Below are positions 1 through 8,899 of a stretch of DNA of 8,899 bases, piece by piece (the first letter of the stretch is position 1; every line of letters starts with the position of its first letter). The notes beneath the pieces are model-generated. The model saw only the letters and a list, made by a program, of their open reading frames with translations, did not search any database and was not told the origin of the DNA. A program made the position numbers and the translations under genes. Origin of the DNA: a virus (taxonomy: Duplodnaviria; Heunggongvirae; Uroviricota; Caudoviricetes); the IMG/VR virus record IMGVR_UViG_2600255005_000007, positions 1 through 8,899 of that record. The stretch is one strand, 5' to 3'.

Positions 1-477
1 GTGATAAAGCGTGTTTTGCAGGCTGCGTTCGATGTCATCAACGCTGCGCCGCTGGCTGGCAGAGAGCGAGGCAATAAACGCTTCGGCTTTTTCCGGCGAC
101 TGCTGGCGATAAAGATTCGCCAGCCCGCGCACGGCGTTAGTGTTGCTACTGTCCATACGCAGCGTCTGCTGGTAATAGCGTTCAGCGGCGGGGTAATCTT
201 TGCGCGCCATCGCCACATCGCCCAGCCCCAGCACCGCATAGCTGTCGGCGTTATCGACATTGCGCGCCTGCTGGAACAGGCGTTCTGCCCGGTCGGGATT
301 ATTGGCTTTCAGCGCAGCATCGCCCTGCTGGATCGCCAGCCAGTAGCGATTCACCTTCAGCAGACTGTTCCATTTGTCGTTGTTGCTGCTGTGCGGATCC
401 AGCGCGAGGGCTTTTTCCAGATTCGCCACCGCATTAGCACGATCGCCATTCTGAGAATACGCCTGCCCCAGCGCCCC
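1..477 (-). pseudogene. bcsC: Internal fragment of cellulose synthase operon protein C (BcsC, TPR region). The N-terminal side is cut at 477/478; the gene continues past the window start.
   Basis: Reverse-complement translation of 477..1 reads GALGQAYSQNGDRANAVANLEKALALDPHSSNNDKWNSLLKVNRYWLAIQQGDAALKANNPDRAERLFQQARNVDNADSYAVLGLGDVAMARKDYPAAERYYQQTLRMDSSNTNAVRGLANLYRQQSPEKAEAFIASLSASQRRSVDDIERSLQN. I recognise this as the central TPR part of enterobacterial BcsC, nearly identical to my recollection of the E. coli protein. It is missing from the ORF track because it has no start or stop inside the window. Similarity ends abruptly at 477/478. Confidence 0.85.
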
Positions 478-2088
478 CGGAACGCGGCGAAAACATCAGA
501 GACGAATGCAGGTAACAGCGCGAAAGCGGCAGCTTCTTCAAAAACAGCCGCACAAAATGCAGCAACAGCGGCAGAACATTCAGAGACAAATGCCCGTGCG
601 TCAGAGGAAGCCTCCGCAGACAGTGAAGAGGCTTCCCGCCGTAATGCAGAGTCAGCCGCTGAAAATGCCGGAATCGCCACCACAAAAGCGCGGGAGGCCG
701 CAGCAGACGCAACAAAGGCCGGGCAGAAAAAGGATGAGGCTCTGTCGGCAGCGACACGAGCAGAAAAGGCGGCAGACCGCGCAGAAGCCGCAGCGGAAGT
801 GACTGCAGAGCCCTATGCGAATATAGTGCCGCCGCTGCCTGATGTATGGATACCGTTTAACGATACACTGGATATGATTACGGGGTTTTCGCCATCATAT
901 AAAAAGATTGTTATTGGTGACGATGAAATAACAATGCCAGGCGACAAGATTGTTAAGTTTAAACGTGCTTCAACAGCAACGTATATTAATAAGTCCGGCC
1001 AACTCAAGCTTGCTGAAGTTGATGAACCGCGATTTGAGCGCGATGGCTTATTGATTGAAGGACAGAGGACAAATTATCTGAGGAACTCAAATAAACCAGA
1101 CTCATGGACTGTTCATTCCGCACTGAATAAAACATTTGGCACTGATAAACAGGGGTTCAATTATGCCACGGTGACACCCACGGAAAGTATAGTGGGAACA
1201 ACAGGTGGCTATACTGTGCATGGTGTGGTTGCAGCAGACAGATTCCCGCTGGCAAGTGGTGAATGTTTCACTTTTTCGTGCCGGGTTAAAGGCGCTAAAG
1301 CACGATGCAGGTTAAGAGTTTCAGTTATTATTGGTGGAACAGATACATTCTCTGCTGACTCTTATCTTGATCTGGATACCCGGATCGCAACAGTAAGCGG
1401 TAATACATCCCTTATAACAGCCAAAGCTGAACAACAGGGCGAGTGGACCTACTATGAGGCCACTTATACAGCTAATACGGACATTGATACCGTTAACTGT
1501 GCTTTTTATATGACAAATAAAATAAGTAATGAGCCATTCTATGATGACTCAACATTAACCATGACGACGCCGCAAATTGAACTGGGCAATACGGCATCGT
1601 CATTTATTGTAACTACAATGCCAACAACACGCGCAAGTGATGTGGTTACTATCCCATCGCAGAATAACCTGTCAACACGGCCTTTTACGGTATTGTGCGA
1701 AGTAAGCAGGAACTGGAGTACACCGCCCAATGTTGCGCCAAGGATATTTGATGTTGGAGGGCACAGTATTGATGATAATTATTTATCGCTGGGGTTTGTT
1801 TCAACAGGAAAGATAAGCGCCAACGTAGGAATGGTTCAGCCACAAATTTCCTCAGATGGAGAAAGGTTCATTGTGGGTGTGAGAGCTAAATCTGATTTAT
1901 CAGTAAATGCAATATGCAGTGGTAATTATACAACAAACCTTAATGGTAAAATATTTGGAGTTACAGCAACATCGTACCGGTTTGGTGGGCAGACCGCAGC
2001 AGGAACGCGTCATTTGTTTGGACACATCAGAAATTTCAGAGTCTGGTTTAAAGAATTAAATGACAGGCAAATCAAGGAGGCAGTATGA
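478..2088 (+). CDS. Phage side tail fibre protein, 5'-truncated: Ala/Ser/Thr/Glu-rich shaft repeats followed by a distal receptor-binding region
   Basis: From 478 the frame reads RNAAKTSETNAGNSAKAAASSKTAAQNAATAAEHSETNARASEEA..., the low-complexity shaft repeat typical of lambdoid Stf-like fibres. A globular distal part follows, about 420 aa, ending ...TRHLFGHIRNFRVWFKELNDRQIKEAV. That tail resembles the usual end of LamG/ConA-like jelly-roll domains. The TGA stop at 2086-2088 overlaps the next ATG. There is no start codon of its own; the upstream open frame (1-477) is bcsC antisense. Confidence 0.8.
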   Translation, partial: RNAAKTSETNAGNSAKAAASSKTAAQNAATAAEHSETNARASEEASADSEEASRRNAESAAENAGIATTKAREAAADATKAGQKKDEALSAATRAEKAADRAEAAAEVTAEPYANIVPPLPDVWIPFNDTLDMITGFSPSYKKIVIGDDEITMPGDKIVKFKRASTATYINKSGQLKLAEVDEPRFERDGLLIEGQRTNYLRNSNKPDSWTVHSALNKTFGTDKQGFNYATVTPTESIVGTTGGYTVHGVVAADRFPLASGECFTFSCRVKGAKARCRLRVSVIIGGTDTFSADSYLDLDTRIATVSGNTSLITAKAEQQGEWTYYEATYTANTDIDTVNCAFYMTNKISNEPFYDDSTLTMTTPQIELGNTASSFIVTTMPTTRASDVVTIPSQNNLSTRPFTVLCEVSRNWSTPPNVAPRIFDVGGHSIDDNYLSLGFVSTGKISANVGMVQPQISSDGERFIVGVRAKSDLSVNAICSGNYTTNLNGKIFGVTATSYRFGGQTAAGTRHLFGHIRNFRVWFKELNDRQIKEAV

Positions 2089-2375: not shown

Positions 2376-2669
2376 ATGGATATAAGCCCCTTACTTCATG
2401 CACTTTGTGCTGTGGCTGCGCAGATACTGGTTGGTCTTTTTACCGGAAACTGGGCTTACGGAGCGATAGCCGGTTGTACGTTCTTCATTGCGCGTGAACA
2501 TACCCAGGCAGAATATCGCTGGATTGAAATGTTCGGGCATGGCAAGCGAATGAATATGCCGTGGTGGGGCGGATTTGATCCGCGCGCGTGGGATGTGGCA
2601 AGCCTGATGGATTTTGCTGTGCCGGTGGTGGCGTGTCTGCTGGTCTGGCTGTTGGTTAATCGTGGGTGA
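2376..2669 (+). CDS. Small integral membrane protein (97 aa, about 3 hydrophobic segments), prophage accessory or moron-like
   Basis: Strong SD (gaAAGGAGGaaataATG). Hydrophobic stretches are ISPLLHALCAVAAQILVGLFTG, AYGAIAGCTFFIA and LMDFAVPVVACLLVWLLV. It sits 12 nt after the previous stop. The 3' end lies next to the junction with the recombinase fragment, so the native C-terminus is uncertain. Confidence 0.6.
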   Translation: MDISPLLHALCAVAAQILVGLFTGNWAYGAIAGCTFFIAREHTQAEYRWIEMFGHGKRMNMPWWGGFDPRAWDVASLMDFAVPVVACLLVWLLVNRG

Positions 2670-2679
2670 AAAAAGGTGG

Positions 2680-3033
2680 GCTGTATATGCAACGGAGGAA
2701 GAAACCCGGGAGAAAGCGCGGATACAGAAACCGGGTGCCTGTCACATCTTCCGGCACTCGATGGCAACGCAGATGCTGGACAACGGCGCAGACACGCGGC
2801 ACATCCAGGCGATCCTCGGCCATGAGAAGCTGGAGACGACGCAGATCTACACGCGGGTAGCCATCGGTCACTTACAGGAAGTTCACGCGCTGACGCACCC
2901 GGAAGAGCAGGACGAGACGTGGACGGATCGGCACGTTGCGGATGCGGTGGCAGAGCCGCAGACGCGCCGGGAGCGTAATCACGCAGAGATGGAGCGGGCG
3001 CTGGTCAGCAGGAAACGCCGCCGGAGACGCTGA
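2680..3033 (+). pseudogene. C-terminal catalytic fragment of a tyrosine recombinase/integrase; the N-terminal two thirds are missing
   Basis: The translation contains ...KARIQKPGACHIFRHSMATQMLDNGADTRHIQAILGHEKLETTQIYTRVAIGHL. This gives the H-x-x-R box, the LGH box and the catalytic Tyr (IYTRV) of the XerC/D-phage integrase superfamily. The first catalytic Arg and the core-binding domain are absent. The upstream part of ORF 2614-3033 only overlaps the membrane-protein gene in another frame. The left boundary is approximate, about 2670-2700. Confidence 0.8.
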
Positions 3034-3110
3034 TGCAGGCCGGAAGCGTGATCATCGCCGGACTGCCTGAAAAGTTAGCGGGCGATCCCTGTAAGGCCGT
3101 GGGGTGAGGT

Positions 3111-3154
3111 GCAGGGCAGACAACCGCCTTCCCTGGCGGTTGACTGCCCCCTGC
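3111..3154. repeat. Imperfect inverted repeat / hairpin 1
   Basis: Perfect 8-bp core caaccgcc (3121-3128) / ggcggttg (3135-3142) with a 6-nt loop, ttccct. The outer arms gcagggcaga / actgccccctgc extend the pairing with one A-A mismatch and a 2-nt bulge. Confidence 0.7.
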
Positions 3155-3174
3155 CAGCGGAGTGCGCGGGGGTA

Positions 3175-3240
3175 AATGCCGTTCGCCCCGTGGAGGCAGG
3201 CGTGTCCCATGCGGCCACGGCGCACGGGGCAAACGTCATT
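3175..3240. repeat. Imperfect inverted repeat / hairpin 2
   Basis: The 18-nt arms aatgccgttcgccccgtg (3175-3192) and cacggggcaaacgtcatt (3223-3240) pair at 16 of 18 positions around a 30-nt loop. Confidence 0.7.
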
Positions 3241-3242
3241 CA

Positions 3243-3339
3243 ACATAATGCGGGGGATTATGCGCACTCTCGCCGGGTGGCAACGGCGGCGAACCCGACC
3301 CGCTGTGCGCGGCTCGTGTTCGCACAATCCGCATTATGT
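3243..3339. repeat. Imperfect inverted repeat / hairpin 3
   Basis: Perfect 11-bp outer stem acataatgcgg (3243-3253) / ccgcattatgt (3329-3339). After a GGG bulge, an inner stem attatgcgcac (3257-3267) pairs with gtgttcgcaat-type sequence (3318-3328) at 9 of 11 positions. The apical region is about 50 nt. Confidence 0.7.
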
Positions 3340-3975
3340 CTTGCGCCCCCGCGTTCAGCCCCTTAACCAGTGCCACGCGCAGCAGCTCGCTGGCGCTCGC
3401 TCCTGCCGTCTCAGCGGCGGTGTCCTTCCTCAGCGCCGCAGTCGCCGCCATCCCTGGCGGCTCCGGTGCCGTTCTGCGGCGGCGTCATCGTGTGGCAGTC
3501 AGTCAGAAAAGGGTGTCGGCCTGGCGGCCTCCGCTTGTAAGGGCTTTATGCCCGCCCGGCGTCGTCTGGCTGCGGCGGCTCGTGCCGCGCAAAAAGGCCG
3601 CGCGTCACTCGTTCCCGCCTCGCCAGCTTCCGCTGCCCGCCCCGGTCCGGTGTGGTCATGCAAAGGCCAGCTCCGGTCAGGCAGCGGTGCCACAGAGCGC
3701 CGTTCCGTCGCTTGCGGACTCTCTGCCGCCCGCACCCGCAGACCCCGCGCCGTGGCCCCGCCATGCCGCCGGAGGCGGCCTGGCGGCCCCCCGTCACGGG
3801 TTGCCGGAAACGGACTTAGTGGAAAGCGGAATGACAGGTTCGTGGCGGTGGTGATATGGTGAGCGGGCGTGAAAACGCGCGTCGGGAAAGCCGGGTTAAC
3901 GTGCTGTTAAATAATTAAAAGGTGATAGCCGTGAAGCCAGAAACGGCGCGGGCGGTAGCGTGTTAAAAAGTATGA

Positions 3976-4401
3976 CCCGCACCGGATCGTCCCGATGACC
4001 CGATAGGGCTGAGAGGCGGATTAAACTTATACCAATACGCGCCTAATCCAGTAAACTGGATCGATCCTTTGGGTTTGAAATGTGGGCAACCTGAATGGAC
4101 AAATCATGGATACAAACATTTTCCTCCAAAAAACAAATCATGGAAGGATATAATTAAATCAACAAAATCAGGCCCGGCAAAATATTCTCCAGATATTGAT
4201 ATTAAAACGTTGGAATACGATGTTTTTAATACAGGCACACCTGTTACGAACGGTAAACCATGGAAAGTAAAAGATATGGGAAAAGTTATTGGGGCCAGTG
4301 AGGGTAAAGAATCTCAATGGGTTCGAGTTGAACTTAGCGGTGGGACAATACATGGACATCCTATATCAATCGATGAATTCCGAAGGCTAACAACATCATG
4401 A
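3976..4401 (+). CDS. Orphan Rhs C-terminal toxin tip 1: core-end remnant plus a toxin domain of unrecognised family, about 110 aa, with no start codon of its own
   Basis: The open frame reads [49 protein letters not shown]...[27 protein letters not shown]. DPIGLxGGxNxYxYxxNPxxxxDPxGL is the hallmark boundary between the Rhs/YD core and its variable toxin tip. The 'start' in the ORF track (4069) is only the TTG encoding a Leu of DPLGL. Upstream, tatgacccg (YDP) sits in another frame, so the remnant is frameshifted. Confidence 0.8.
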
Positions 4402-4691
4402 ACATTGATTTCTTAGGAAAAAAAGGGAATATAGTTTTTAATGACTTCTCCCTGAAACAAAGCATCCCTCTTAATGAACAGCGAGATGAACTTAAGGAAG
4501 ATATGCTCCAGGTTGAATATCCTGGTGGGTATCTTTTGGATGTTGGGTGGCGACCATCTTTTGATATAAATGGGAAGTTTTATATTTGTTTAATAAAGGA
4601 TTTTGATTGGGATTATCCCATTTATAATGGTTCTGCGAAAGATATTGTCTCATTATTATTTGAAATTAACCAAGCTATAAATAAACTTTAA
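4398..4691 (+). CDS. Putative cognate immunity protein 1 (97 aa)
   Basis: ATGA overlap with the toxin stop. AT-rich. The small cytoplasmic-looking protein sits immediately 3' of an Rhs-CT, the canonical immunity position. A terminator hairpin follows. Confidence 0.65.
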
Positions 4692-4700
4692 ATAAACTTT

Positions 4701-4740
4701 AAAAAAACTGGGAAGAAAATTAAATCTTCCCGGCTTTTTA
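4701..4740. terminator. Bidirectional rho-independent terminator between immunity 1 and SymE-like copy A
   Basis: Stem ctgggaag (4708-4715) / cttcccgg (4726-4733), 8 bp including one G-U pair, with a 10-nt loop. It is flanked by an A7 run on the left (4701-4707) and T5 on the right (4735-4739). Confidence 0.7.
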
Positions 4741-5006
4741 TTATTTAACTCTCGTTCAGCACACTAAACATCCCGTTCCGCATCCCCTTAACCGCCTGTT
4801 TGACCTGGTAAAGTTCCCTGCGCAGTTCCTGTACTTCGTTGTTATCCGCTAGCAGGATCAGGCAACCTTCCGAGATCTTCACGGTAACGCCCGTGCCGAT
4901 CTCAAATCCCGCTTCTCTCAGCCATTTGGCGCTGATTTTGATCACCGGCGTGTCGCTTCGGTTGGGCAGATAGCCCACGGTACAGTGGCGCTGTGTTTTG
5001 GAAATG
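4719..5006. repeat. Direct repeat copy A (288 bp): right half of the terminator plus the SymE-like ORF
   Basis: Aligns base for base with 7311-7599, with 7 substitutions and 1 T-run indel. Identity ends sharply after ...gtgttttggaaatg. Confidence 0.9.
4745..4978 (-). CDS. SymE-family (AbrB/SpoVT-fold, type I toxin-like) protein, copy A, probably 5'-truncated
   Basis: The translation ...TVGYLPNRSDTPVIKISAKWLREAGFEIGTGVTVKISEGCLILLA... matches the SymE signature as I recall it from E. coli SymE ([48 protein letters not shown]). The only available start is the GTG that encodes the Val of TVGY, and it has no SD. The frame stays open upstream to a TAA with no start codon. Confidence 0.7.
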   Translation of the reverse strand: MGYLPNRSDTPVIKISAKWLREAGFEIGTGVTVKISEGCLILLADNNEVQELRRELYQVKQAVKGMRNGMFSVLNES

Positions 5007-5159
5007 ATATTTTTGTATTTAACCTGCTGATTAGATAGTAAAATAAACTTCGTGCAGATAGCTTACTTTGTCAGGGTGTGGCGGTAGCGTATGAACTATG
5101 ACGTGATGGTTTTAGTGATTTATAGACGAAACTGACAGTACGATCCGGACTTCGATTAG

Positions 5160-5621
5160 ATTGCGCGATTTGACCCGATAGGGCTGGCGGGGGGGCTGAA
5201 TCTTTATCAGTATGCGCCGAATCCGTTAAACTGGATCGATCCGCTTGGATTAAGTTGCTCTAGTGATGCAAAAAAATTATCTGGTAATTTAGGATCAGCA
5301 CCAAGTAGTCACTATCGACCACATCATATGGTTATGTCTAATTCCAGCGATGTGCGTATGCGGTGGTTACGTAGAAGGATGGATCGGTTAGGTATAGATA
5401 TAAACGATTCCAAAAATGGTGTATGGCTACCCAAAAACTCTGATTATCGGTTACCGGGGACAAAAGCTACTGCTCATGGTGGTGAAGGTGTACATGGAAA
5501 TGCATATAAACAACATGTGTGGGATACGTTGAAAAATGCAAGAACAAAAGCTGATTTTGAAGCAGGGCTTGCGCAACTTAAAGTAGAGCTAAGTACTGGC
5601 AAAACGTTTCCTGTCCAATAA
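5160..5621 (+). CDS. Orphan Rhs C-terminal toxin tip 2: HNH/EndoVII-superfamily AHH-type nuclease domain, no start codon of its own
   Basis: The open frame after TAG (5157-5159) reads [40 protein letters not shown]...[10 protein letters not shown]...[16 protein letters not shown]...[15 protein letters not shown]. The xHH dyad, the downstream NG-x-x-LP and the H-x-x-H-x-x-Y fit the AHH nuclease toxin family, here with PHH. The M at 5328 in the ORF track is internal, in the middle of the HH motif. Confidence 0.8.
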
Positions 5622-5634
5622 GGAGTATGATCAC

Positions 5635-6252
5635 ATGAAAGATTTTCTGAAAAGTTTATATGAAGATTACAATGGAAAGTATTCGGAACTGATAGAACAG
5701 ATGAACGGAGAAAAGGCTACTTGTAGATGGGGGTATGGTGTTATGCCTGCCTTCTCTATAGAACCTTATGCATCCGAGCTTTTAGGTCATAAACCGGGAC
5801 GAATGTTGAAAAATAACTCAATCGCAGGAGTAAATAAACAATGCTATTATGTTGATGAACAAAACAGGATAATAGAAGGAATTACATACGCCAGCCATCG
5901 TAAGAAAGATAATGAATGGATTGTGTATAGAAATTTTTATATTTACCAAGAAAATACCATTCTTGGGCTTTTGTATAGTAGTACATTTGAAGATAGTAAA
6001 AACACAGGATTGAATAAGATTGTATTTATAAGCATTGATAATAAATTAATAAATAATAAGTATACTTTCATGTATGATGGGGAGTATTCTGAGGTAGATT
6101 ATATTTATAATAAAGATAAAATAATAAAAATAGACCAAAGGGTATGGTCTTCGTTTTATTTTGAACGCACTTATCTGATAGAGTCAAATGATCCATTGAT
6201 TATTAATGAATACTTAGAAAATAGTGGGAACATCAGGATCTACCCTACTTAA
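5635..6252 (+). CDS. Putative cognate immunity protein 2 (205 aa)
   Basis: Good SD (taAGGAGtatgatcacATG) 13 nt after the toxin stop. Very AT-rich. Immunity position. I recognise no domain. Confidence 0.65.
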   Translation: MKDFLKSLYEDYNGKYSELIEQMNGEKATCRWGYGVMPAFSIEPYASELLGHKPGRMLKNNSIAGVNKQCYYVDEQNRIIEGITYASHRKKDNEWIVYRNFYIYQENTILGLLYSSTFEDSKNTGLNKIVFISIDNKLINNKYTFMYDGEYSEVDYIYNKDKIIKIDQRVWSSFYFERTYLIESNDPLIINEYLENSGNIRIYPT

Positions 6253-6345
6253 TTTATCAAAGTAAGAGACTAATATATGGACTATGATGCGGCTGTTTCA
6301 GGGATATGCGATTGAAGCCAGTAGTATGATCCTGCGATGGGGTAG

Positions 6346-6801
6346 ATTCACCGTCCTGATCCGATAGGGCTGGCGGGGGGAATAAACCTCTATGCTTATG
6401 CGCCGAATCCAGTAAACCACATTGATCCTCTTGGGCTATCTTGTGGAAAGGTTGGTAACGTTGAATATCGTAATTTTGAGCGTTCTCCGGGAATGTTTTC
6501 TCGGTTATTAAAGAATAAACGTGACTTTGATTATGTTGCCAGATATAACATCTCAAGATATAAAGCTACATTGAGAAAAAATAATCCGGATGGTTTTGGT
6601 AATATTAGCCATTATTTCGATGGTGTAGATGCAAAAGGAAATAAAGTCGTTATTGAGGTGGCGAATACAGGGCATAAATCTTCAAGCGGTGGTTTTGAGC
6701 CTCCACATATTAAAATTCAAATAAAAGACGCTGATAACAAAGTGATACATAATGCCAAATATTTTTTGGAAGATGATATATATAGAATTACGGGCAAATA
6801 A
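6346..6801 (+). CDS. Orphan Rhs C-terminal toxin tip 3: toxin domain of unrecognised family, about 125 aa, with no start codon of its own
   Basis: The open frame after TAG (6343-6345) reads [76 protein letters not shown]...PPHIKIQIKDADNKVIHNAKYFLEDDIYRITGK. It has the same core/toxin boundary motif. The M at 6493 in the ORF track is internal. Confidence 0.8.
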   Translation: MHRPDPIGLAGGINLYAYAPNPVNHIDPLGLSCGKVGNVEYRNFERSPGMFSRLLKNKRDFDYVARYNISRYKATLRKNNPDGFGNISHYFDGVDAKGNKVVIEVANTGHKSSSGGFEPPHIKIQIKDADNKVIHNAKYFLEDDIYRITGK

Positions 6802-7260
6802 ATGAAAAATATTAGAGAGTTAAATAATGCAGAATTCTCCGGGCTTATTAACAATGCTTTACCATTCTTACATATTAATCCTATAAGCGAAGCTGTTTGT
6901 ATTCATGCAGAAGCTTATAAAAGTGGTATTGATGTTAACTATATCCGTTGCAACGTTGACTGGGAGGGGTTTTCTTCTTTAACTGAAGCGTTGGAAACGT
7001 TATACCATGAATTATTTAAAGATGGTATTCCATCAGGCGAATTGTTGTTTTTTTACCCGTTTGATAGAACAAAGAAAGGGAATTATGGTGTTATACTGGA
7101 ATCATCTCAGCTATTAGATTTCTTAATAAAAGAGCATTTGAAGATTTATCCTGAATGTTTTAATGTAGAAATGTGTAGCTTCGGTTTTTATTTTATAGAT
7201 CACGAAATATTTTACGGCATGGAACATCCTGATTTTTTATATAGTTTCTGTGTAAGATAA
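6802..7260 (+). CDS. Putative cognate immunity protein 3 (152 aa)
   Basis: The ATG directly abuts the toxin TAA (taaATG), implying translational coupling. AT-rich. Immunity position. A terminator hairpin follows. Confidence 0.65.
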   Translation: MKNIRELNNAEFSGLINNALPFLHINPISEAVCIHAEAYKSGIDVNYIRCNVDWEGFSSLTEALETLYHELFKDGIPSGELLFFYPFDRTKKGNYGVILESSQLLDFLIKEHLKIYPECFNVEMCSFGFYFIDHEIFYGMEHPDFLYSFCVR

Positions 7261-7297
7261 TTAATAAAGTGAGGAGTATATTTCTCTTTCTTAATCG

Positions 7298-7332
7298 CCG
7301 GGAAAGGTAGATTAAATCTTCCCGGCTTTTTT
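7298..7332 (+). terminator. Rho-independent terminator after immunity 3, homologous to the one at 4701-4740
   Basis: Stem ccgggaa (7298-7304) / ttcccgg (7319-7325), followed by gc and T6 (7327-7332). Confidence 0.7.
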
Positions 7333-7599
7333 ATTATTTAACGTTCGTTCAGCACACTAAACATCCCGTCCCGCATCCCCTTAACAGCCTGTTTAACCTG
7401 ATAAAGTTCCCTGCGCAGTTCCTGTACTTCGTTGTTATCCGCTAGCAGGATCAGGCAACCTTCCGAGATCTTCACGGTAACGCCCGTGCCGATCTCAAAT
7501 CCCGCTTCTCTCAGCCATTTGGCGCTGATTTTGATCACCGGCGTGTCGCTGCGGTTGGGCAGATAGCCCACGGTACAGTGGCGCTGTGTTTTGGAAATG
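7311..7599. repeat. Direct repeat copy B (289 bp)
   Basis: See copy A. The repeat ends at the same ...ggaaatg, after which the primase-like frame begins. Confidence 0.9.
7338..7571 (-). CDS. SymE-family protein, copy B, probably 5'-truncated. The ORF track extends it to 7619.
   Basis: Same sequence as copy A with 2 amino-acid differences (N/D, and terminal S/R). The 16 extra N-terminal codons in the track (7572-7619) begin with a GTG that lies outside the repeat, on the antisense of the primase fragment, and has no SD. I treat that extension as fortuitous. Confidence 0.7.
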   Translation of the reverse strand: MGYLPNRSDTPVIKISAKWLREAGFEIGTGVTVKISEGCLILLADNNEVQELRRELYQVKQAVKGMRDGMFSVLNER

Positions 7600-8824
7600 G
7601 TGGGCCGCACTGCTGGCACACGGCGTCAGGCAGGTACTGATCGCCTACGACAACGATCCGGCGGGCAATGAGGCGGCGGTGAAACTGGCTTCTTCCTTAG
7701 CCGCTTCCGGGATCGCCACGTTCCGCGTACTGTTCCCGGCGGGCATGGATGCGAACGGTTATCTGTGCAGTGTGGCAGAGCCGGAACAGGCGTTCAGTCT
7801 GTTGCTGGATGGCGCGGTGCCCATGAGTGACCTGGCCGATGCGGAGAGTATCGCGCCGCAGGCCAGCGCGGAGCCTGCACACCTGACTTCATTAGCTGCC
7901 GGGGTTGCGGTCTTACCCGCAGCCGCCGCGCCTGCACCGGGCGTCAGCGTGGAAACCCTGGCCGATGGCGAACTGATGGTAGCCTTACCCGGCGAACGCT
8001 GGACTATCAGGGGCGTAAGCCGCAAACCGAACGTCGCCGCGATGAAGGTCAATGCGCAGGTGCTGGACACCAACAGCGGCGTGGTGTTCGCTGATGCGGT
8101 GGATATGATGAGCGCCCGCAGCCGTTCCGGTTATGCGCGGGCCGCAGCGGCAGAGCTTGGGCTTGCCGAAGGCGACCTGCGCCGTTCGCTGGGTAAGGTG
8201 CTGCTGGCGCTGGAGCACTGGCAGGCGGCACCGGAGCCGGAGAGCGTCGCCCCGGAGATGACGCCGGAAGATCGGGAGGCGGCGCTGGATCTGCTGCGCG
8301 ACGAGTGTCTTGCCGGGCGCATCGCTTCTGATATGGCGGCGTGTGGCGTGGTGGGTGAGTCCACCAACCTGACGGCGGCGTATCTGGCGGCGGTGTCACG
8401 CAAACTGGAGCGCCCGCTTGCCGTTCTCATCCAGTCGTCGAGCGCGGCGGGTAAGTCCAGCTTAATGGATGCGGTGCTCAATCTGATCCCGCCAGAGGAA
8501 CGGCTGCAATACAGCGCCATGACCGGGCAGAGCCTGTTCTACCTCGGCGAAACCAACCTGCAACACAAGATCCTCGCCATCGCAGAAGAAGAAGGTGTGC
8601 GCCAGGCGGCGTATGCGCTGAAACTGTTGCAATCAGACGGGGAACTGACCATCGCCAGTACGGGCAAGGACGACGCCAGCGGCAACCTGGTCACCAAACA
8701 GTACACGGTGAAAGGCCCGGTGATGCTGATGCTGACCACCACGGCGATCGACGTCGATGAAGAACTGTTAAACCGCTGCCTGGTGCTGACGGTGAACGAG
8801 TCGCGGGAGCAGACGGAGGCCGAA
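7598..8824 (+). pseudogene. Internal fragment of a Toprim / P-loop NTPase primase-helicase-like protein of an integrative or conjugative element, truncated at both ends
   Basis: VLIAYDNDPAGNEAAVKLA...FRVLFPAGMDANGYL looks like the distal Toprim DxD region. Later, LIQSSSAAGKSSLMDAV is Walker A-like and HKILAIAEEEG is Walker B-like. The codon usage is GC-rich and coding-like, and all minus-strand ORFs here are shadows. There is no native start because the frame enters from the SymE repeat. At the 3' end the reading frame runs into the rrn leader and stops there fortuitously. Confidence 0.7.
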
Positions 8825-8899
8825 CTGCTCTTTAACAATTTATCAGACAATCTGTGTGGGCACTCGAAGATACGGATTCTTAACGTCCTCGGACGATAA
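8824..8899 (+). promoter_or_regulatory. rRNA operon leader including the boxA antitermination element; 16S rRNA expected just downstream of the window
   Basis: actgctctttaacaatttatcagacaatctgtgtgggcactcgaagatacggattcttaacgtc is identical to my recollection of the E. coli rrn leader downstream of P2. boxA tgctctttaacaa is at 8826-8838. The following small hairpin differs in a compensatory way (cgtcctcggacg versus cgtcgcaagacg), consistent with a natural rrn variant. Confidence 0.8.

What the first reader, a model, noticed from the sequence alone, without database searches (positions are those of the whole stretch)
6358..7260. Toxin tip 3 and its 152-aa partner are both unrecognised
The tip (…SCGKVGNVEYRNFERSPGMFSRLLKNKRDFDYVARYNISRYKATLRKNNPDGFGNISHYFDGVDAKGNKVVIEVANTGHKSSSGGFEPPHIKIQIKDADNKVIHNAKYFLEDDIYRITGK) shows no nuclease, deaminase, ART or peptidase motif that I can identify. 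The abutting ORF (taaATG) is also unassignable. The pair is a good candidate for an undescribed toxin/immunity family.
Basis: inference. Interest (0 to 1): 0.5.

Follow-up and report, generated by a model that had tools for sequence, protein, structure and literature searches.

The report
Orphan Rhs toxin tip with immunity gene
This is a silent spare copy of a bacterial contact-weapon toxin and its antidote gene; the family is rare and unnamed, the toxin is probably a small nuclease, and the pair is an ordinary kind of module whose exact chemistry is unknown.

Summary
Window 6358-6801 encodes the last 27 residues of an Rhs core, ending in PNPVNHIDPLGL. A 120-aa basic toxin domain follows. A 152-aa acidic ORF abuts it (TAA-ATG, 6802-7260). 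Neither protein matches Pfam, NCBIfam, PHROGs, PADLOC or any PDB sequence.

The pair is real. The same tip ends full-length T6SS Rhs effectors (VgrG, DcrB/Eag chaperone, then a 1519-1565-aa Rhs). The 152-aa homologue always follows, from Escherichia and Salmonella to a Bacteroidota genome. dN/dS is 0.02-0.04 for the toxin and 0.10-0.14 for the partner.

In this window the module is an orphan. It is the third of three, its 5' core remnant is broken, and the whole domain has no start codon.

A 2026 preprint assigns Salmonella Rhs2-SciX to the same structural class, which it calls BECR RNase-like. A weak profile match to the DNase family Tox-HNH-EHHH exists, but the key catalytic histidine is an invariant alanine here.

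Best reading: an undescribed sequence family of a known structural class, probably a nuclease and more likely an RNase. It is a new member of a known kind.

The parts
6323..6357 (+). Decayed remnant of the Rhs core 3' end (…YDPAMG / RFTV…). It is out of frame and contains TAG at 6343-6345.
   Evidence: Three-frame translation. The 121-nt repeat 5137-5257 / 6323-6443 is 72% identical.
6358..6438 (+). Conserved Rhs core end, [27 protein letters not shown]. It includes the PxxxxDPxGL autocleavage motif at 6409-6438.
   Evidence: NCBIfam TIGR03696 Rhs_assc_core positions 49-76, E 1.3e-7. The 81-nt repeat has three copies, at 3996, 5171 and 6357.
6439..6801 (+). Toxin domain ('tip 3'), 120 aa plus stop, pI 9.6. 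The predicted fold is two N-terminal strands, one helix, a five-stranded antiparallel sheet and a short C-terminal helix. Family-invariant residues are E76 (6655-6657), A78, G81-H82 (6673-6675), G87-G88, E90-P91, H93 (6706-6708), K95 (6712-6714), K99, K110-Y111-F112, E114, D116 and R119. Residue numbers count from L = 6430.
   Evidence: alignment. (AlphaFold2 model: pLDDT 76.9 overall, blocks covering residues 31-110 at 79-96). (dN/dS 0.02-0.04). (pI).
6493..6801 (+). The only start-codon-bearing ORF inside the tip (ATG, 102 aa). It retains the helix, the sheet and all invariant residues, but no clear ribosome-binding site precedes it.
   Evidence: ORF list. (upstream sequence GAGCGTTCTCCGGGAATG).
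6802..7260 (+). Cognate immunity gene, 152 aa, pI 4.8, 17.7 kDa. The predicted fold has 4 helices and 6 strands. An invariant C-terminal FYG-x-EHP-x-x-LY block is present.
7297..7335 (.). GC-rich hairpin (CCGGGAAAGG…CUUCCCGG) followed by a U-run. It is a likely intrinsic terminator between the immunity gene (+) and the SymE-like gene (-).
   Evidence: RNA fold -16.1 kcal/mol, z -3.05. The homologous hairpin after module 1 was detected on both strands.

Best explanation
**What it is.** 6358-7260 is an orphan Rhs toxin-immunity module.

**The family elsewhere.** The 120-aa domain is the C-terminal cargo of large prePAAR/PAAR-Rhs effectors. These are loaded on VgrG with a DcrB/Eag-type chaperone and fired by a type VI secretion system. 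The toxin is released by autocleavage after DPLGL and acts in the target cell's cytoplasm.

**Likely activity.** The toxin is a small, basic, alpha-plus-antiparallel-sheet enzyme. Its invariant E76, H82, E90, H93, K95, K110/Y111 and R119 most likely form a nuclease active site on the sheet face and the strand-connecting loop. I think the substrate is most likely RNA (rRNA or tRNA, blocking translation), as in the 5T86 CdiA-CT, CdiA-CT(ECL)/colicin E3 and Rhs2 class.

**The partner.** The 152-aa acidic protein is the cognate immunity protein. It has the CdiI(5T86)/SciX-like fold and probably binds over the active site.

**In this genome.** The copy has no start for the whole domain and a broken 5' remnant, so it is probably silent as a toxin. 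It would act as a recombination reserve for a main rhs gene, while the immunity gene may still protect against neighbours that fire this toxin.

**Shown versus inferred.**
- Shown: the module anatomy, orphan status, conservation, linkage, T6SS context of relatives, purifying selection, and the fold similarity of the immunity model.
- Inferred: nuclease activity, RNA as substrate, active-site occlusion, silence of this copy, and the recombination role.
For: **Anatomy and orphan status:**

**Same tip at the end of full-length Rhs genes, always followed by the partner:**
- L003: Hcp, VgrG, DcrB, 1519-aa Rhs, 152-aa partner.
- L004.
- E. coli 21F61: VgrG, DcrB-related, 1557-aa Rhs, 163-aa partner, SymE.
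- N-termini carry AAK/AAR-x-x-D-x-x-x-H, prePAAR-like.

**Linkage holds as the pair diverges (tip % / partner % identity to the window):**

| Locus | Tip | Partner |
|---|---|---|
| L003 | 91 | 79 |
| L004 | 91 | 70 |
| L005 | 92 | 64 |
| L006 | 81 | 56 |
| L014 (Rapidithrix, Bacteroidota) | 60 | 30 |
| L074 (E. coli 21F61) | 55 | 30 |
| L076 (marine metagenome) | 49 | weak match only |

Sources.

**Selection and charge:** purifying selection on both genes. Toxin pI 9.6, partner pI 4.8.

**Structure:**

**Literature:**
- The A0 34/86 CdiA-CT family is related to the E. cloacae CdiA-CT, which is a colicin-E3-like 16S rRNase.
Against: - The tip model rests on only 5 sequences. Its first 20 and last 5 residues are unreliable.
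- There is no sequence similarity to 5T86, colicin E3 or cloacin.
- 5T86 itself has no published activity.
- Immunity folds can be shared by inhibitors of unrelated toxins.
- The only above-background sequence signal points to a DNase family, Tox-HNH-EHHH.
- Nothing was tested experimentally.
Confidence: 0.55

Rival explanations
1. The tip is a highly divergent offshoot of the Tox-HNH-EHHH family (PF15657; characterised member TseI of Aeromonas dhakensis). It would act as a DNase. Its immunity protein would have been replaced by an unrelated one.
For: - The two best full-coverage hits of the first search are PF15657 members.
- hhalign of the tip profile against a 50-sequence EHHH profile aligns 48 columns: G-[SN]-K-[IV]-V-I-[QE], G-H, G-G, P-H-[FI]-x-[VI]. 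Score 24.8, P 1.3e-3.
- 150 column-shuffled decoys gave mean 11.7, sd 2.4, maximum 19.8.
- Both families start with a helix and are otherwise beta-rich.
- TseI degrades plasmid DNA.
Against: - There is no PF15657 hit for any of 8 family members, even at E <= 10. hhalign probability is only 18%.
- The histidine of the [ED]H motif is H1497 in TseI and is essential there. In the tip family it is an invariant alanine (IE-V-A78).
- The N of PHFN is K95, and the C-terminal H of HY-x-F is K110.
- EHHH toxins are followed by Imm50 or TsiI. Neither is related to the 152-aa protein.
- The candidate came out of a search seeded partly by the shared Rhs core, so there is some selection bias.
Confidence: 0.2
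2. The toxin has some other activity on a similar alpha-plus-sheet scaffold. Examples are a nucleotide-modifying or pyrophosphokinase-type enzyme (RelA/SpoT-like), or a non-nucleolytic translation inhibitor that binds a factor such as EF-Tu.
For: - Rhs2, in the same structural class, binds EF-Tu, and its enzymatic activity has not been shown.
Against: - All these matches are non-significant (Foldseek E >= 0.05, TM <= 0.41).
- The domain core is about 95 residues, roughly half the size of a synthetase domain (my own knowledge).
- No Pfam RelA_SpoT hit.
- The 5T86-type immunity fold favours the CDI nuclease class.
Confidence: 0.1
3. In this genome the region is only decaying debris. Neither the tip nor the 152-aa ORF is expressed or useful, and its conservation reflects recent descent rather than function here.
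For: - The 5' remnant is broken and the full domain has no start codon.
- No above-chance promoter signal is present in 3900-7700: 9 sites against 12.8 expected.
- The module is 100% identical in E. ruysiae L013, so this copy offers no within-lineage divergence to judge selection.
Against: - Both ORFs are intact. The immunity ORF has its own ATG and a terminator.
- Orphan copies in Salmonella (L005) and E. coli (L001, L002) also keep both ORFs intact.
- The family-wide dN/dS is very low.
- Orphan Rhs modules are documented to be re-activated by recombination (Koskiniemi 2014, cited). I did not read that paper.
Confidence: 0.15

Closest known systems
CdiA-CT/CdiI complex of E. coli A0 34/86 (PDB 5T86; unpublished structure)
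   Same: - It is a two-protein toxin/immunity module of a contact-dependent competition system.
- The tip model superposes on the toxin chain over 78 of 104 residues at 2.8 A.
- Both toxins are about 100-120 aa, with a helix and an antiparallel sheet.
   Different: - There is no detectable sequence similarity. Identity over the aligned residues is 7% for the immunity protein and 13% for the toxin.
- Delivery is by Rhs/T6SS rather than CdiA/CdiB.
- The toxin match is not distinguishable from background on its own.
- The activity of 5T86 is not published.
Rhs2 (Rhs-orphan)-SciX of Salmonella Typhimurium SPI-6 (bioRxiv 10.64898/2026.05.10.723254)
   Same: - It is an orphan-type Rhs fragment with a PxxxxDPxGL motif, a small C-terminal toxin and a roughly 17-kDa immunity protein.
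- SciX has 6 strands and 4 helices, as does the model here.
- The immunity surface is acidic and the toxin surface basic.
   Different: - Sequences could not be compared, because none is available to the tools.
- SciX was not among the homologues found for the 152-aa protein.
- The residues named in the preprint (Rhs2 D192, H204, H208, R224; SciX R47, I114, Y119-E121, H138) do not match the spacing of the conserved residues here.
- It is therefore at best a remote relative.
CdiA-CT(ECL) of Enterobacter cloacae and the colicin E3 / cloacin DF13 cytotoxic domain (16S rRNase)
   Same: - All are small basic toxins with one helix plus a twisted antiparallel sheet and an acid/His/Lys-type active site.
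- The 5T86 toxin family is reported as related to the ECL CdiA-CT.
   Different: - No Pfam Cytotoxic or Cloacin hit.
- hhalign against colicin E3/cloacin gives no signal.
Tox-HNH-EHHH (PF15657) with Imm50; TseI-TsiI of Aeromonas dhakensis
   Same: - It is an Rhs C-terminal toxin of similar size, with an N-terminal helix and a beta-rich remainder.
- It shares the pattern G-x-K-[IV]-V-I-[QE]-x-x-x-x-G-H…G-G…P-H-[FI]-x-[VI], with an above-background profile score.
   Different: - Three signature residues are replaced: H to A78, N to K95, H to K110.
- No HMM hit.
- The immunity family is different.

Membership tests
Rhs C-terminal polymorphic toxin module | The toxin is immediately preceded by the Rhs core end with the PxxxxDPxGL autocleavage motif. 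| tested here: met
   PNPVNHIDPLGL lies at 6409-6438. TIGR03696 matches positions 49-76 with E 1.3e-7, at 32.1 bits against a cutoff of 32.5, because only the last 27 residues remain.
Rhs C-terminal polymorphic toxin module | The same tip is found at the C-terminus of full-length YD-repeat Rhs proteins in T6SS context (VgrG, Hcp, Eag/DcrB chaperone, PAAR/prePAAR). | tested here: met
   L003, L004 and L074. N-terminal motifs are shown. This is not the case in the window itself, which holds no Rhs core.
Rhs C-terminal polymorphic toxin module | A small immunity gene lies directly downstream and co-varies with the toxin. | tested here: met
   The homologous partner follows the tip in every locus recovered, with toxin identity running from 92% down to 49%.
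Rhs C-terminal polymorphic toxin module | Toxicity of the tip and specific neutralisation by the partner. | not testable with these tools
   This needs expression and rescue experiments.
Orphan Rhs module | Only a short 3' fragment of the core is present, with no N-terminal Rhs or start codon, and the module sits in an array after other modules. | tested here: met
   The core-end repeat has three copies. Stops and indels lie upstream of 6358. The first in-frame start codon is at 6493.
Tox-HNH-EHHH (PF15657) | Match to the family HMM. | tested here: not met
   No PF15657 hit for the window tip or for 7 relatives at E <= 10. The positive controls P0001 and P0026 score E 1e-27.
Tox-HNH-EHHH (PF15657) | [ED]H motif at the end of the first strand. 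This is H1497 in TseI, which is essential there. | tested here: not met
   The aligned column is an invariant Ala78, in I-E-[VIY]-A.
Tox-HNH-EHHH (PF15657) | The two further conserved histidines and the Asn (P-H-F-N and the C-terminal H-Y-x-F). | tested here: not met
   P-H93 is kept. N is replaced by an invariant K95, and the C-terminal H by an invariant K110.
Tox-HNH-EHHH (PF15657) | Profile-profile similarity. | tested here: inconclusive
   hhalign probability 18%, P 1.3e-3, score 24.8, against shuffled decoys with a maximum of 19.8.
Tox-HNH-EHHH (PF15657) | Imm50 (or TsiI) immunity partner. | tested here: not met
   Imm50 follows P0001 and P0026. hhalign of the 152-aa family against Imm50 and TsiI gives probability below 1%.
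5T86-type CdiA-CT/CdiI pair (called BECR-fold in the Rhs2-SciX preprint) | Immunity protein with the CdiI(5T86) fold. | tested here: met
   [not shown]
5T86-type CdiA-CT/CdiI pair (called BECR-fold in the Rhs2-SciX preprint) | Toxin with the CdiA-CT(5T86) fold. | tested here: inconclusive
   [not shown]
5T86-type CdiA-CT/CdiI pair (called BECR-fold in the Rhs2-SciX preprint) | Acid / His / basic catalytic set positioned on the sheet face; RNase activity. | not testable with these tools
   Invariant E76, H82, E90, H93, K95, K110 and R119 exist. Model coordinates could not be inspected, and no activity data exist.
5T86-type CdiA-CT/CdiI pair (called BECR-fold in the Rhs2-SciX preprint) | Sequence homology to 5T86 chains or to Rhs2/SciX. 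| tested here: not met
   PDB sequence and profile searches were empty.
Colicin E3 / cloacin cytotoxic rRNase domain | Sequence or profile similarity to the cytotoxic domain. | tested here: not met
   No Pfam hit. hhalign probability 0.15%.

The most novel reading that the evidence does not exclude
The tip family is an evolutionary offshoot of the Tox-HNH-EHHH scaffold that swapped its catalytic and metal-binding residues: H to Ala78, N to Lys95, H to Lys110. It also acquired a CdiI(5T86)/SciX-type immunity protein. It would then work by a different, probably metal-independent, chemistry or on a different substrate than the parent DNase. That would link two toxin classes now filed under different folds (His-Me finger and BECR-like).
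Probability: 0.12. Interest if true: 0.55.

Novelty: new member of a known kind. Interest (0 to 1): 0.3.

Why it matters
Rhs and CDI tips are a large reservoir of small enzymes with unusual specificities. Most are unnamed.

This family has several useful properties:
- It is rare but spans two phyla.
- It is under very strong constraint.
- It occurs in complete T6SS effectors of E. coli that could be tested directly.

Defining its activity would add one family to the catalogue. It would give a second, independent entry point into the 5T86 / Rhs2-SciX structural class, whose substrate is still unknown. It could also clarify whether the weak link to Tox-HNH-EHHH is real.

For this genome it is an ordinary orphan module. 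Its practical meaning is a possible reserve toxin plus a possibly protective immunity gene.

Tried and rejected
- **Curated libraries.** Pfam, NCBIfam, PHROGs and PADLOC gave only sub-threshold noise for both proteins (rve_2, PDC-S02, MTase_II).
- **PDB by sequence.** Single sequences and profiles of both families, plus the EHHH profile, Imm50 and cloacin, gave no link to 5T86 or 4NTQ. I therefore could not obtain the 5T86 sequences.
- **Word-index search with the tip alone.** It found nothing, although full-length Rhs proteins with this tip exist. I treat this as a limit of the index, not as absence.
- **Structure prediction with locus-derived sequences.** The tip model therefore rests on 5 sequences.
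- **afdb50 fold search.** The library was not available.
- **Foldseek against the PDB for the tip.** Nothing significant.
- **tblastn of both proteins against plasmids.** No match.
- **Colicin E3/cloacin and TseI/TsiI comparisons.** No similarity to the tip or to the partner.
- **Imm50 as the partner family.** Rejected.
- **RelA/SpoT-like reading.** Considered because of recurrent weak structural hits. Rejected as the main explanation on grounds of size and lack of any sequence support.
- **Rfam on the whole window.** Nothing found.
- **Promoter scan.** Not above chance.

Full report
**1. What is in the sequence**

Frame 1 from 6358 reads [27 protein letters not shown], then SCGKVGNVEYRNF…DDIYRITGK. 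The stop is at 6799-6801 and a 152-aa ORF starts at ATG 6802. The first 27 residues are the end of the Rhs core (NCBIfam Rhs_assc_core positions 49-76, E 1.3e-7). They end in the PxxxxDPxGL autocleavage motif at 6409-6438. The toxin domain proper is therefore 6439-6798, 120 aa.

Upstream, the frame is closed by TAG at 6343-6345. The text …YDPAMG / RFTV… is split over two frames in a way that suggests a +1 and a -1 indel about 15 nt apart. The first in-frame start codon is ATG 6493.

The 81-nt core-end sequence occurs three times, at 3996, 5171 and 6357, with 73-75% identity. This is therefore the third orphan module of an array:
- Module 2 carries a Pfam AHH nuclease tip.
- Modules 1 and 3 are each followed by a SymE-like gene on the other strand, inside a 272-nt repeat that is 97% identical.
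- A hairpin plus U-run at 7297-7335 separates the 152-aa gene from the SymE-like gene.

The window matches an Escherichia ruysiae genome at 99.98% over 2706-7602.

**2. Is it recognised?**

No curated family matches either protein:
- Pfam, NCBIfam, PHROGs and PADLOC give nothing.
- PDB sequence searches with single sequences and with family profiles give nothing.
- An exhaustive phmmer search of the tip against 1.84 billion cluster representatives found only four proteins, 49-60% identical over the longer matches, with one 30-aa fragment at 83%.

**3. Is it a real toxin-immunity pair?**

I looked up where homologues of the 152-aa protein (56-98% identical) are encoded. Two metagenomic contigs place it directly after complete Rhs genes of 1519 and 1565 aa. 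These genes end in the same tip and are preceded by Hcp, VgrG and a DcrB/DUF1795-type (Eag) chaperone.

A more distant version sits in complete genomes of three E. coli strains. In strain 21F61 the order is VgrG, DcrB-related protein, a 1557-aa Rhs with a 55%-identical tip, a 163-aa partner at 30% identity, then SymE. The N-termini of the two metagenomic Rhs proteins carry AAK/AAR-x-x-D-x-x-x-H. From my own knowledge this is the prePAAR signature of effectors that enter the target cytoplasm.

Orphan copies with both ORFs intact occur in Salmonella (L005) and in E. coli (L001, next to the narZ-side genes).

A Bacteroidota genome, Rapidithrix thailandica, carries a 60%-identical tip in its own orphan array. 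A 162-aa ORF follows it and aligns with the partner family, including the C-terminal FYG-x-EHP-x-x-LY block. A marine metagenome contig with a 49% tip has an overlapping downstream ORF that resembles the partner weakly.

| Locus | Tip identity (%) | Partner identity (%) |
|---|---|---|
| L003 | 91 | 79 |
| L004 | 91 | 70 |
| L005 | 92 | 64 |
| L006 | 81 | 56 |
| L014 | 60 | 30 |
| L074 | 55 | 30 |

The partner diverges faster than the toxin. dN/dS is 0.02-0.04 for the tip and 0.10-0.14 for the partner. The tip is basic (pI 9.6) and the partner acidic (pI 4.8). All this is the standard signature of a cognate polymorphic toxin/immunity module.

**4. What fold and activity?**

Mean pLDDT is 76.9, the ten-residue blocks covering residues 31-110 average 79-96, and the ends are unreliable. 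It shows two N-terminal strands, one helix, a five-stranded antiparallel sheet and a short C-terminal helix.

*Literature on that class:*
- Rhs2 is toxic and is rescued by SciX. D192A and H204A abolish toxicity.
- Rhs2 binds EF-Tu. The authors call the fold BECR and propose RNA, probably tRNA, as substrate.
- No activity has been shown for Rhs2, and 5T86 itself is unpublished.
- Poole et al. 2011 relate the A0 34/86 CdiA-CT family to the E. cloacae ATCC 13047 CdiA-CT. That protein is a colicin-E3-like 16S rRNase with active site D203, D205, H207 and K214 and a helix-plus-six-strand topology.

The tip family's invariant residues are E76, H82, E90, H93, K95, K99, K110-Y111, E114, D116 and R119. 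They lie on the last three predicted sheet strands, the connecting loop and the short C-terminal helix. This fits such an acid/His/Lys nuclease site. I could not inspect the coordinates.

**5. The Tox-HNH-EHHH lead**

The two best full-coverage hits of the first homology search (P0001 and P0026) are Pfam Tox-HNH-EHHH members. Most of their score came from the shared Rhs core. Toxin-only BLASTP gives a 37-residue match to one of them and nothing to the other.

I built an EHHH profile from 50 sequences. hhalign against the tip profile aligns 48 columns. The shared pattern is G-x-K-[IV]-V-I-[QE], G-H, G-G and P-H-[FI]-x-[VI]. The score is 24.8, P is 1.3e-3 and probability is 18%. In 150 column-shuffled decoys the mean score was 11.7, the sd 2.4 and the maximum 19.8. 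The resemblance is therefore above background but far from proof.

The membership test fails on several counts:
- No family member hits PF15657.
- Aligning the characterised member TseI to the profile (probability 95%) shows that its essential H1497 is the histidine of the [ED]H motif. The tip family has an invariant alanine there.
- The N of PHFN is an invariant K95. The C-terminal H is an invariant K110.
- EHHH toxins are followed by Imm50 or TsiI. Neither is related to the 152-aa protein.
- The EHHH family has no solved structure detectable by sequence. Its His-Me-finger assignment is a prediction.

I keep 'divergent EHHH-like DNase' as the main rival.

**6. Conclusion**

The region is an orphan Rhs toxin-immunity module of an undescribed, rare sequence family. 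The family elsewhere forms the warhead of complete T6SS Rhs effectors.

The immunity protein belongs, by predicted structure, to the CdiI(5T86)/SciX class. The toxin is most likely a small nuclease of the associated class, and RNA is a more likely substrate than DNA.

In this genome the toxin part has no start codon for the full domain and a broken 5' remnant. It is probably silent. The immunity gene is intact, with its own ATG and terminator.

This is a new member of a known kind of system. It is interesting mainly as a tractable second example of the 5T86 / Rhs2-SciX class, and for the unresolved hint of a link to the EHHH family.

Noticed in passing
window 2706-3900 and 7602-8899 (flanks of the orphan array 3996-7620): The low-GC orphan array (31-41% GC) lies between high-GC blocks (67% and 63%). 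The left block holds a tyrosine-recombinase C-terminal fragment (ORF 2614-3033). The right block holds a long ORF (7586-8899) that I did not analyse. E. ruysiae L013 has the same arrangement, with an extra 1.5 kb at the right junction and further partial copies of the high-GC blocks.
   Followed up: partly
window 4745-4978 (-) and 7338-7619 (-); repeat 4735-5006 / 7328-7599: SymE-family toxin genes (Pfam SymE_toxin, E 8e-15) sit tail-to-tail with the immunity genes of modules 1 and 3, inside a 272-nt repeat that is 97% identical. A SymE-like gene is also next to, or one or two genes beyond, the immunity gene in L001, L003, L004, L005 and L074, and precedes the Rhs fragment in L012. This looks like a recurrent, unexplained association. 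No Rfam SymR-like RNA was found.
   Followed up: partly
window 4069-4691 and 5328-6252: Module 2's tip is a Pfam AHH (HNH/EndoVII) nuclease (E 8e-9), and its 205-aa partner has no family hit. Module 1's tip (110-aa ORF) and its 97-aa partner are also unassigned in Pfam and NCBIfam.
   Followed up: no
window 1-2088: A long ORF runs from the window start. Its C-terminal part looks like a phage tail-fibre or receptor-binding protein by eye. The left 2.7 kb of the window is not shared with the E. ruysiae locus L013.
   Followed up: no
[not shown]
   Followed up: partly
L014 (Rapidithrix thailandica) 5659-9530: A Bacteroidota genome carries its own array of short Rhs-fragment plus partner modules. 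One of them has the tip-3 family at 60% identity, which implies exchange of this module across phyla.
   Followed up: partly
method note: The word-index protein search returned no hit for the tip alone, although full-length Rhs proteins ending in this tip exist in the same collections. Tips embedded in long Rhs proteins are easily missed, so rarity estimates for such domains are lower bounds.
   Followed up: yes
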